A DNA stretch of 12,204 nt, from the NCBI GenBank assembly GCA_046726415.1, contig JBKPAK010000256.1, forward strand, positions 1 to 12,204, read 5' to 3'. The position numbers are program-made. This stretch comes from Candidatus Methylomirabilota bacterium (GTDB lineage Bacteria; Methylomirabilota; Methylomirabilia; Rokubacteriales; CSP1-6). Shown in pieces: positions 1 to 3,000 of this stretch (the stretch's first letter is position 1; every line of letters begins with the position of its first letter).

Positions 1-3000
1 TCCGGTCCAGCGCCCTCGAGGAGGCCCCCGGCGGCTAACCCACCGTCGTCGAGGTGGCGGGCTCCTTCCGCGCCGGCGCGGGAAGGTGCACATACAGATC
101 CGAGGGTTTCGGCTTCGCCGTCCCGAGGGTCCGGGGCGGCCTCATGGTGTAGGTCACCGGCCGGGCGTGGTCGGCGACCTGCCGCTTTGCGTTGTAGACG
201 CGGTTGAATTTCCAGATCGACTTCGCAAAGTTGGTATGCCCGCGCAGAAGCTGGCCGGCGATGATGCGGGCCGCCCCGCGCATCGCGGAGAAGCCGAGGT
301 GCTTCTGCCGCAGCACGCCCTGCGTCTTCACCAGTTCCGCGTAGAAGCGCTCGAGGGGCAGGCGCGTGGGCAGAACAGCGTGCTGGACGTCGAAGAGCCG
401 GTAGTCCAGCGACGAGAGCGCGCGGGACTCGGTCAGCCACGTCTCCGTCCCCGGATAGGGCGTGTTCACGGTCACGTGGACGATCTCGGGGATACTCAGC
501 GCCCACTCCCGGATGGTGGCGAAGCGCGTCTCGTCCCAGTCGGGATCGGCAATGATGTTCAGGGCCACCGTGAATCCCAGCTCGCGGGCCACCTCCAGAG
601 CTTTGAAGTTATCGCCCGGGGACACGCGCTTGCGGTGAAGCTTGAGACCCTGCTCGTCGATCGCCTCGAGGCCCAGGAACATGTAGTGGAGCCCGAGCTT
701 CCTCCAGTACGCGAAGACCTCGCGGTTCTTCAGCAGCACGTCGCAGCGCGTCTCGAGGTAGTACTCCTTCTTAATGCCTCGCCGCTCGATCTCGCGGCCG
801 ATGGCGTAGCCGTGCTCGGGCCGGATGAAGGCCACGTCGTCCACCAGGAACACGTTGGGCTCCCGGATCTGCGCCACATCCTCGGCCGCGGCCTCCGGCG
901 AAGCCTGGCGGTAACTGCGTCCGTAGAAGGTCCAGGCACTGCAAAAGGCGCAGTCCCAGGGACAGCCCCGGGTGAACTCCACGGAGGCGCAGGGATCGAG
1001 CACCCCGATGAAGTACTTCCGCCGACGGCGGGTGAGGTCGCGCGCGGGAAGATGCTGGTCGAGGGTGTGAAGCAAGGTGGGGTTGGGGCCGCTCCCCTCC
1101 AAGGTCACCACCCCCGGTAGTTTCTCCGCGCCGCCATCGCGCCACGTGTCGAGGAGCGGTGGGGTGACCACTTCCCCCTCGCCCCGCACGACGCAGTCGA
1201 TGGCGCCCCGCGCGTGCTCCAGGATCTCCGAGGCGATGAACGACGCGCTGTGGCCTCCCACGAAGACAAAACAGCCCGGCCGCCGGCGCTTGGTCTCCAC
1301 GGCCAGGTCGATGGCTTCCGGGACGTTGGCCAGGTAGTTCAACGAAAAGCCGATGGCCTCCGGCTCCCACCGTGAGACCTCCCCGAAGTACGTCTCGTGC
1401 GTGAAGATCTGGAGATCGAGGAGACGCACGTCGTGGCCGGCGGCCCGGACCGCCGCGGCCACCCGCTCGAGTCCGAGGGGCTCAAGCCGCAGATAGATCT
1501 CGGAGTACATGAGTGGGCTTGGGTGGACCAGAAGCACTCGCATAGTCGGCTATTCTAGCCTCCGATCCTCAGCGACATAGTCGAATGATCCTTTGCGGAT
1601 ATTGACGAAGAACAGCTCAGGCAGGCTGAACGCGACCCCTCTGAGCCCCGCCCACAGCGTCCGGCCGCGGTCGAACGGCAGGGTGGCCAGGCCGGCCACG
1701 GTCGCCCCCAACCCCGTGACCAGGTTGGCCGCCCCAAAAAGCGGGCGCGCGACCACCACGTCATCGGTAAAGAACAGGAAGTACGAGTCATCGCGGGGTC
1801 GCTCGTAGAGGGTCGAGGTGAGCGTGTTTGACTCCTGCAGGAATACCCGCAGGGCGGAGTGCTGGCGGTAGAGGCGGGCCAAGCTGGCCCGGCGATGCGA
1901 CGGAATTTCGGCCGGTGGCGATGTCCTATAGGTCTTGATCACGGCCGCGGCAGAGACGGCGGGAATGAAGCGCAGCCCGTTCATCTCGAGGTGGCCGCCC
2001 AACCGGCGCTGGGACGCCTCGCGCAGAGCGCGCCCGGCGTCCGCCGCGTCGGGATGGGCGTTGGCGAGGGCGCGATCGATCTCGCGAAAGATCTCGGTGA
2101 CGCAGTTGCGCGTGAGCAGGTGGTATTCGTAGAGGCGCTGCAGCCGTTGGCCATAGTTGGCCTCTCGCGTGGTCACCACCTTGAGGTACTCATCCACGGC
2201 CTGGCCAGCGCGCGGGGGGACGATGAGGCGGCTTGCCGGCGCGCTCCGCGAGGGCGCCTGGCGGCCCGGCAGGAGACGAAGATCGCGGCCTTCGTGGCCG
2301 GCGCGCCAGGCCTCGCTGAGGCGATTGCCCGCCGCTTCCAGCTCGGCGAAGTCCAGCTCCGGAAAACCGCCGTCCGGGCCCGACGGCCTTACGATCCGGA
2401 CCCGGGCTCGCTCGAAGTCGGCGCGCGCCTCGCCGGTGAGCTCGGCCAGCAGGTCCGGCCGCCTGGCCAGACGCCCGCGATCGAGCCTCGGCGCATCGGC
2501 GGGGAACACATCGAGAAATACCCAGGAGCCCGATCGCCGAGTCTGCTCGAGGGCCTCCAATCGGGCCAGGCCCACCAGGAGGGCGCTGCCCCAGTCCGGA
2601 CGTGGCGACCGCACGAGTCGAACAAGGCTTGCCCGCAGGGCTTCCATCAGACCGTCCACGGCGCGCGCTTCACCATCGCGCAGGGCGACGTCGACGGAGG
2701 CCGCGAGCGTGGTGCTCCCGGGAAGGAGACCCCGGCCGTGGTGAATGACCTCCAGCGCCTGGCGCGCCGCCATGGCGTCCGTGTAGCGCTGGGCAAATCC
2801 ATAGACGGCGGGAGGAGCCCGGTCGATGGCGATATCGAGGGGAGGCGCGCCGCTCTCGCGAGGATCGAGCGCGTCGATCTGGCGATCGGCCTCCACCAGG
2901 CGATGGCTCAGAAACTCGGGGCCGTGAACCGCCGCGATGCGCTCGCGCAACGCTTCGAAGGCCCATGACGGCGCGCCGTCCGCAGGGGTGCCGGCGCCAT

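What a model noticed while it worked through the whole genome (the two positions that open the first line are those of the whole stretch)
35..1510. Hopanoid C-3 methylase HpnR in non-methanotrophic Rokubacteria
The genome encodes a full-length HpnR together with squalene-hopene cyclase, HpnH, HpnA, HpnD, HpnG-like, HpnN-like, HpnI and HpnJ. HpnR is common in its family and absent from the sister family searched. Abundant soil Rokubacteria are thus a likely unrecognised source of 3-methylhopanoids, a biomarker often read as aerobic methanotrophs.
Evidence so far: TIGR04367 838 bits, cut-off 650. Over cut-off in 15 of 36 other family genomes, 0 of 21 in family f4, and in 7 of 14 genomes of other orders at similar scores. 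Cyclase C8:95801-97684, 757 bits; other hpn genes call 93; cyclase in 5 of 5 HpnR-positive relatives. PMC10697835 describes rokubacterial HpnP and has no occurrence of 'hpnR'; PMC12324291 names other phyla for HpnR (passages seen, calls 76, 81); search 178 found no paper.
(Added by a program. Inside this text positions count along the whole contig: contig position 1 is position 1 of the stretch shown here. "Call 12" and the like, gene names such as g00115 and contig names such as C1 are that model's own, and its searches are not shown. The text may have been shortened before it was handed on; [...] marks where a part breaks off. The agent that wrote the report below was given it as the finding of a first reader that could run no searches.)

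Follow-up and report, generated by a model that had tools for sequence, protein, structure and literature searches.

The report
Hopanoid C-3 methylase in Rokubacteria
This soil bacterium carries an ordinary copy of the known enzyme that adds a methyl group to hopanoid membrane lipids; the more interesting point is that about a quarter of its family carry both known hopanoid methylases, a pairing described as very rare.

Summary
Confirmed, with a corrected start: the gene is window 35..1543 (-), 502 aa, TIGR04367 HpnR 862 bits (cut-off 650). It is native to the lineage. The genome has SHC, HpnH, HpnA, HpnD, HpnI, HpnJ and CobS, and no methane monooxygenase against controls that rang. HpnR passes the cut-off in 80 of 159 family genomes and 0 of 21 in the sister family. 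The significance was overstated. 3-Methylhopanoids lost methanotroph specificity in 2012, NCBI already names rokubacterial HpnR, Methylomirabilota HpnR is in print, many soil phyla carry it, and 4 of 12 hpnR-bearing alphaproteobacteria made no product. I found no paper naming HpnR in Rokubacteriales. New here: family HpnR is polyphyletic (AU p=2e-5), and 39 of 159 family genomes carry both HpnP and HpnR, twice on one contig. That predicts 2,3-dimethylhopanoids, so far reported tentatively from one strain in the papers read. This genome lacks HpnP. The scan noted HpnR orthologues before in two other genomes. No lipid or RNA data.

The parts
35..1543 (-). hpnR, hopanoid C-3 methylase, 502 aa, cobalamin-dependent (class B) radical SAM enzyme
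   Evidence: TIGR04367 861.9 bits, cut-off 650; 61-65% identical to 19 Methylococcaceae HpnR and 68-70% to 11 from the pmoB-bearing genus f13/g68
1166..1501 (-). B12-binding domain, residues 15-126
   Evidence: PF02310 75.8 bits
503..982 (-). Radical SAM core domain, residues 188-347
   Evidence: PF04055 67.7 bits
941..964 (-). CxxxCxxC [4Fe-4S] motif, Cys194/198/201
   Evidence: read from the translation; invariant in alignment A1 of 6 sequences
1550..3466 (-). 638-aa unnamed protein with a signal-peptide-like N-terminus, ending 6 bp before hpnR; genus-specific neighbour, not part of the hopanoid pathway as far as tested
   Evidence: no Pfam or NCBIfam family; Atlas cluster of 1861 members, commonest known phylum Spirochaetota, nearest named clusters Lnb_N at 0.76; found next to hpnR only in L046, L021, L025 among the 160 loci then held
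3468..3980 (-). LIC11139-family putative lipoprotein; genus-specific neighbour
   Evidence: NF033171 65.5 bits, cut-off 50; 74-76% identical in L046 and L181
4089..4176 (+). tRNA-Leu, divergent from the lipoprotein / 638-aa / hpnR run
   Evidence: ARAGORN
4132..7515 (+). tig-clpP-clpX housekeeping operon that anchors the contig to the host lineage
   Evidence: TIGR00115, TIGR00493, TIGR00382 over cut-off; same order in same-genus genome G095 (L181), ClpX 96% identical

Best explanation
The ORF is a genuine, chromosomal HpnR of a non-methanotrophic Rokubacteria lineage. Shown: family membership, the B12-binding domain, the CxxxCxxC motif, and the hopanoid pathway elsewhere in the genome. Inferred from class B radical SAM chemistry, as proposed for HpnR in PMC13459092: one SAM methylates cob(I)alamin; the [4Fe-4S] cluster cleaves a second SAM to the 5'-deoxyadenosyl radical; that radical removes a hydrogen from C-3 of the hopanoid A ring; the ring radical takes the methyl from methylcobalamin. 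The likely substrates are C35 bacteriohopanepolyols (HpnH, HpnG-like, HpnI, HpnJ present), giving 3-methyl-BHT derivatives, probably as a minor, stationary-phase membrane component by analogy with Methylococcus capsulatus. The gene stands apart from the hpn cluster, as is usual for hpnR, and its neighbours are unrelated. Rokubacteria are one of many non-methanotrophic soil lineages with this capacity.
For: Score 212 bits above the equivalog cut-off over the whole model. 231 of 267 columns invariant in 19 Methylococcaceae HpnR are kept, against 95 in each of two distant paralogues and 217-247 in three other HpnR rows; 142 of 143 columns conserved in at least 97% of the family are kept. 68-70% identity to HpnR of the pmoB-bearing genus, which I take to be Methylomirabilis (inferred from pmoB and phylum, not named by a call); M. 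oxyfera makes 3-Me-BHP-hexol (PMC5516240 passage). Outside this phylum, 43 of 50 HpnR-bearing genomes tested (50 of the 80 loci) have SHC over the cut-off. CobS and four cobalamin riboswitches are present. Native to the lineage: GC 67.8% against 67.5%, tetranucleotide correlation mid-range among 117 similar-sized contigs, and synteny with 74-83% DNA identity over long stretches of G095. No pMMO: PF04744 in 0 of 1 here and 10 of 20 in the control genus; pmo subunits gave no tblastn hit. No sMMO: 0 of 183 at E<=1e-20, control 14 of 51 Methylococcaceae, no tblastn hit.
Against: Only one hpnR has been validated by knockout, and TIGR04367 was reported to match uncharacterised proteins near NirJ as well. 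In my tree P0001 falls outside the SH-aLRT 97% clade holding the main Methylococcaceae, alphaproteobacterial and Nitrospira HpnR, so function is carried across a deep split. No hpn-related gene lay within about 6-8 kb of hpnR in 37 of 39 phylum loci or 78 of 80 named loci, so gene context gives little support. 6 of 50 HpnR-bearing genomes had no SHC match and 1 a split one (completeness not given). HpnC, HpnE and HpnK were not looked for genome-wide. No lipid or expression data.
Confidence: 0.87

Rival explanations
1. The enzyme is a true HpnR but is rarely expressed or makes only traces, so Rokubacteria add little to soil 3-methylhopanoids. This does not exclude the best explanation; it refutes the first reader's 'likely unrecognised source'.
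For: 4 of 12 hpnR-bearing alphaproteobacteria made no 3-methylhopanoids; most producers had under 0.25% methylation; methylated BHPs appeared in 1 of 3 cultures of Ca. Koribacter versatilis; Rokubacteria are usually about 1-4% of communities.
Against: The gene is kept intact in half of the family, with 11 of 12, 17 of 17 and 18 of 21 genomes matching in three large genera, which suggests selection for use; Rokubacteria reach 6-10% at some sites.
Confidence: 0.45
2. The branch that holds P0001 is an HpnR paralogue that methylates another position or another triterpenoid, for example the product of the second, divergent cyclase on C296.
For: Deep split from the knockout-validated clade; a second cyclase-like gene at 271 bits, below the SHC cut-off, exists in G000.
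Against: Near-complete conservation of family-invariant residues; the close homologue is the only HpnR-level match in the pmoB-bearing genus, whose type organism makes 3-methyl-BHP-hexol; many HpnR-positive relatives have a single cyclase match.
Confidence: 0.08
3. The 12-kb contig is a binning contaminant, for example from a methanotroph.
For: The genome is a 352-contig bin with 4.66% contamination and no 16S gene.
Against: Composition matches; tig-clpP-clpX and the whole upstream block are syntenic in same-genus G095; the nearest named relative is a Ca. Rokubacteria record at 88.5% (L046); 79 other family genomes carry the gene.
Confidence: 0.01

Closest known systems
HpnR, hopanoid C-3 methylase (TIGR04367 / IPR027564; prototype MCA0738 of Methylococcus capsulatus Bath, Welander and Summons 2012, cited via PMC8590665 and PMC5462960)
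   Same: Domain layout, length, CxxxCxxC motif, score over cut-off, 61-65% identity to Methylococcaceae members, gene away from the hpn cluster, SHC and HpnH in the genome.
   Different: Host order not named for HpnR in the papers searched; P0001 lies on another main branch than the Methylococcaceae proteins; no biochemical or lipid test.
HpnR of the nitrite-dependent methanotroph genus (f13/g68, taken as Methylomirabilis)
   Same: Same phylum, 68-70% identity, same side of the tree.
   Different: That host has pMMO and documented 3-Me-BHP-hexol; this one has neither shown.
Dual hpnP + hpnR bacteria: Ca. Koribacter versatilis Ellin345 and Methylobacterium nodulans, M. oxalidis, M. soli
   Same: 39 of 159 genomes of this family carry both genes.
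   Different: Reported as isolated cases ('very rare'). Here the pair runs through whole genera (g5 10 of 12, g12 12 of 21, g9 6 of 14, g20 4 of 8). The window's own genome has no HpnP.
Rokubacterial HpnP (Hoshino et al. 2023, PMC10697835)
   Same: Same host group; the DUF4070 proteins found here show the N-terminal motif printed for rokubacterial HpnP in that paper's supplement.
   Different: Other enzyme (C-2); that paper and its 8 supplementary files have 0 occurrences of 'hpnR'.

Membership tests
HpnR (TIGR04367) | Whole-protein score above the curated cut-off of 650 bits, full model coverage | tested here: met
   861.9 bits, residues 1-488 on model 1-489/490
HpnR (TIGR04367) | N-terminal B12-binding domain followed by a radical SAM core with CxxxCxxC | tested here: met
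   PF02310 15-126, PF04055 188-347; Cys194/198/201
HpnR (TIGR04367) | Conserves the residues invariant in methanotroph HpnR | tested here: met
   231 of 267 columns; paralogues 95
HpnR (TIGR04367) | Host makes hopanoids (SHC, HpnH) | tested here: met
   SHC 757 bits, HpnH 537.5 bits, both over cut-off
HpnR (TIGR04367) | Falls within the clade of the knockout-validated enzyme | tested here: inconclusive
   Groups with other family-f1 proteins (SH-aLRT 83) outside the 97% clade with the main Methylococcaceae HpnR; root is on a very long outgroup branch. MCA0738 itself was not identified among the unnamed rows.
HpnR (TIGR04367) | Methylates hopanoids at C-3 in vivo or in vitro | not testable with these tools
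   Needs lipid analysis or heterologous expression
HpnP (C-2 methylase) | C-terminal DUF4070 domain and high identity to rokubacterial HpnP | tested here: not met
   No PF13282 in G000, control rang in Synechococcus elongatus; HpnP query hits the window gene at 26% over 213 residues only
BchE (TIGR02026) | Score above 481.35 bits | tested here: not met
   120 bits; the JGI 'cyclase' names on some homologues do not fit this score
Aerobic or NC10 methanotroph | pmoCAB or mmoXYZ in the genome | tested here: not met
   with controls; genome 98% complete; one weak PF02332 match of 57 bits with a stop inside, against 167-202 bits for the Methylococcaceae matches

The most novel reading that the evidence does not exclude
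The main family of Rokubacteriales is a globally distributed soil lineage in which both hopanoid A-ring methylases occur together across whole genera (39 to 42 of 159 genomes), and these cells make 2,3-dimethylhopanoids. That lipid class has been reported, tentatively, from one acidobacterial strain in the papers read. It would be a candidate soil biomarker for an uncultured group and would make Rokubacteria a real source of both 2- and 3-methylhopanoids in soils.
Probability: 0.3. Interest if true: 0.62.

Novelty: new member of a known kind. Interest (0 to 1): 0.33.

Why it matters
The gene itself changes little: geochemists already know that 3-methylhopanoids need isotope support before being read as methanotrophy. 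It adds a widespread soil order, sister to the NC10 methanotrophs, to the list of possible producers, with counts. The testable lead is the frequent pairing of HpnP and HpnR in this family. It predicts 2,3-dimethylated hopanoids in neutral soils and fens, and offers many natural enzyme pairs to ask whether the two methylases can act on the same A ring; the Methylobacterium strains with both genes did not do so.

Tried and rejected
Expression: no RNA holder listed for window:1-4200; no reads were laid. Promoter scan found no sigma-70-like site in 1-4300. 16S rRNA not assembled in G000. PDB sequence search gave one weak match, 9ccb_A at 39 bits; no structure was predicted because it would not decide the regiochemistry. 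A functional link between hpnR and its neighbours was rejected: neighbourhoods differ between genera, and only 2 of 39 phylum loci and 2 of 80 named loci had an hpn-related gene nearby. A PQQ methanol-dehydrogenase family search gave one match of 183 bits, below the 480 cut-off, so methylotrophy is not supported for this genome. The first sMMO control on four chosen genomes stayed silent and was replaced by a family-wide one that rang. Two further AU tests (main clade plus g7; main clade plus other orders) did not finish and were not repeated. A paper search for dimethylated adenosylhopanes in soil returned mostly irrelevant listings. The mSystems version of the Lawrence et al. paper is not held; its Fig. 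S8 and Tables S4-S5, and the bioRxiv supplements, could not be seen and may list rokubacterial HpnR. The v1 supplement held as text has 0 occurrences of 'hpnr' or 'rokubacteri', but its trees are images.

Full report
Observation. The window begins with a 502-aa ORF on the minus strand, 35..1543. The whole protein scores 861.9 bits on TIGR04367 (HpnR, cut-off 650) across model positions 1-489 of 490; the next family, BchE, scores 120. It has a B12-binding domain (15-126), a radical SAM core (188-347) and CxxxCxxC at 194-201. It is the only over-cut-off match of 4 in the genome.

Host and contig. The window is the whole of contig C256 of a 98% complete, 4.66% contaminated bin. Its GC and tetranucleotide profile fit the genome. 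Same-genus G095 has the same order, clpX-clpP-tig / lipoprotein / 638-aa gene / hpnR, at 74-83% DNA identity. The closest named record, L046, is titled Ca. Rokubacteria and is 88.5% identical in HpnR. No 16S gene is assembled, so the taxon rests on this and on NCBI names of homologues.

Pathway. C8 holds shc (757 bits), hpnH, hpnA and hpnD over their cut-offs, hpnG-, hpnN- and hpnM-like genes below theirs, and ispH. C179 holds hpnI and hpnJ. cobS and four cobalamin riboswitches are present. There is no DUF4070 protein and no HpnP. hpnC, hpnE and hpnK were not searched genome-wide.

Not a methanotroph. PmoB (PF04744) matched 12 of 251 phylum genomes: 10 of 20 in genus f13/g68 (the positive control), 2 of 158 in the family, and not G000. 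pmo subunits from three control loci gave no tblastn hit in G000. The G003 match is a C-A-B copper monooxygenase operon below the pMMO and AMO cut-offs; such operons are already described in Rokubacteriales (PMC8780371, abstract and passages). Soluble di-iron monooxygenase (PF02332) matched 0 of 183 at E<=1e-20, against 14 of 51 Methylococcaceae genomes at 167-202 bits. G000 has one 57-bit match with a stop inside.

Distribution. In the order, 80 of 183 genomes pass the HpnR cut-off and 86 match at E<=1e-60. All 80 are in the genome's own family (159 with G000); the sister family has 0 of 21. One positive, G149, is unpublished. Other orders: 21 of 68. SHC matches 155 of 158 family genomes and 20 of 21 in the sister family (includes unpublished G008, G148, G149, G216, G226), so co-occurrence inside the order says little. 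Outside the phylum, 43 of 50 HpnR-bearing genomes have SHC over the cut-off (50 of the 80 loci; includes unpublished G319). Those loci come from Acidobacteriota, Binatia, Dongiaceae, Myxococcota, Actinomycetota, Nitrospirota, Tectomicrobia, Paraburkholderia and Methylococcales. HpnR was found in only 18 of 51 Methylococcaceae genomes sampled.

Tree. Trees of 145 rows (FastTree; 4 rows with stops and 4 duplicates dropped) and 67 rows (IQ-TREE quick, SH-aLRT only) place P0001 with its genus (100) inside a main family clade of 17 rows (83). Other family members fall elsewhere: genus g7 among alphaproteobacterial-type proteins, G114 and G098 in the clade with Methylococcaceae and Paraburkholderia, G121 with another order (97), G133 and G146 near the base. 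One clade for the 25 family rows is rejected (p-AU 2e-5), so the family gained or replaced hpnR more than once. P0001 lies outside the 97% clade that holds the main Methylococcaceae proteins. It still keeps 231 of 267 columns invariant in 19 Methylococcaceae HpnR, against 95 for distant paralogues, and is 68-70% identical to the proteins of the pmoB-bearing genus. I take that genus to be Methylomirabilis; M. oxyfera makes 3-Me-BHP-hexol (PMC5516240, passages).

Neighbours. Gene order around hpnR is conserved within genera but not between them. An hpn-related gene lay nearby in 2 of 39 phylum loci and 2 of 80 named loci. The 638-aa gene and lipoprotein upstream are confined to this genus among the loci held. 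Isolation from the hpn cluster is usual for hpnR (PMC12583986, passages).

Mechanism. Shown: domains, motif, pathway context. Inferred: the two-SAM, methylcobalamin radical methylation of class B enzymes, proposed for HpnR in PMC13459092 (passage), which notes that detailed studies are lacking. In the alphaproteobacteria studied HpnR methylated C35 hopanoids, not C30, so 3-methyl-BHT derivatives are the expected products. A stationary-phase role is by analogy with M. capsulatus.

What is known. hpnR outside methanotrophs has been known since 2012 and the biomarker was declared non-specific then (PMC5462960, passages; PMC8590665, passages; PMC12583986, section 4.2.3). The March 2026 version of bioRxiv 10.1101/2025.07.29.667474 names methylomirabilota HpnR on a separate clade (12 of 21 passages seen); version 1 does not. 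NCBI names four listed homologues HpnR of Rokubacteria or Rokuibacteriota. PMC10697835 and its 8 supplements have no 'hpnR'. Searches hpnR+Rokubacteria, hpnR+Methylomirabilota and Rokubacteria+hopanoid listed no paper that I saw naming HpnR in Rokubacteriales; four of the six listings were seen as listings only, and subscription journals and several supplements are outside the library. Against a large environmental role: 4 of 12 hpnR-bearing strains made no product, most producers were under 0.25% methylated, and Rokubacteria are usually about 1-4% of communities, 6-10% at two sites (PMC5712423 and PMC8780371, passages).

The stronger lead. A full-length rokubacterial HpnP query matched 82 of 183 genomes, all in the same family, mostly at 63-75% identity (includes unpublished G008, G148; G112 at 44% was dropped). 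Of 31 DUF4070 loci read (20 of them from dual or candidate genomes, some genomes read twice), 27 showed the N-terminal motif printed for rokubacterial HpnP in the supplement of PMC10697835; two strong-scoring loci did not return it in the ORF printed, and the two weak-scoring loci checked lacked it. Crossing with the 80 HpnR genomes gives 39 of 159 with both, 36 of them with full-length HpnP and about 17 at >=90% complete and <=5% contaminated by rounded figures; a DUF4070 threshold gives 42. None of the 39 was flagged unpublished. In G063 (C9) and G064 (C2) both genes lie on one contig, which rules out bin mixing there. PMC5462960 calls this pairing very rare and tentatively reports 2,3-dimethyl-bishomohopanol from Ca. 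K. versatilis. Against: Methylobacterium strains with both genes made no 2,3-dimethyl hopanoids, HpnP calls here rest on identity and motif rather than a tree, related genomes are not independent, and I did not survey all bacteria for the pair. A search for hpnP+hpnR+3-dimethyl listed only those two papers.

Verdict. Observation confirmed; interpretation partly supported. The gene is a new member of a known family, in a host group already annotated in databases but apparently not discussed in print. Interest 0.33, carried mainly by the dual-methylase pattern in relatives rather than by this gene.

Noticed in passing
G063:C9:155361-156821 and 381333-382910; G064:C2:2838133-2839596 and 1772413-1773978: hpnR and hpnP on the same contig; 39 of 159 family genomes carry both methylases.
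   Followed up: yes
window 1550..3980 (-): Two-gene module (LIC11139-like lipoprotein plus 638-aa unnamed protein with His and Cys motifs at about residues 46 and 455, recalled as resembling Lnb_N / permuted papain-like proteins) between tRNA-Leu and hpnR; only in this genus among the loci held; Atlas relatives commonest in Spirochaetota.
   Followed up: partly
G000:C296:667-2589 (L035): Second full-length triterpene-cyclase-like gene at 271 bits, below the SHC cut-off; product unknown.
   Followed up: no
L180:2606-5763 (G003:C365): Copper membrane monooxygenase C-A-B operon below pMMO and AMO cut-offs in an HpnR-positive family member; such operons are reported in PMC8780371.
   Followed up: partly
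L008, L019, L169, L023, L022, L026: Family HpnR proteins fall on at least four separate branches besides the main clade; genus g20 holds two different lineages (G114 against G107, G108, G110).
   Followed up: partly
L195 (G133) and L169 (G098): Rare cases where hpnR lies near hpnA/hpnN/hpnM-like or hpnM-like genes.
   Followed up: no
L201:4946-6019 and 10736-11476 (G000:C8): An inositol-3-phosphate synthase-like gene and a CruF-like membrane protein sit inside the hpn cluster.
   Followed up: no
L066, L067: Two Methylococcales bins carry an HpnR that groups away from other Methylococcaceae HpnR, near Nitrospinota and Myxococcales rows (weak support).
   Followed up: no
G000:C198:7541-8185 (L148): Weak PF02332 ferritin-like match (57 bits) with a TGA inside and no NCBIfam family; not an sMMO.
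   Followed up: partly
family f2 (G159-G179): The sister family has SHC in 20 of 21 genomes but neither HpnR nor HpnP; its DUF4070 proteins are of the weaker-scoring HpnP-like type.
   Followed up: partly
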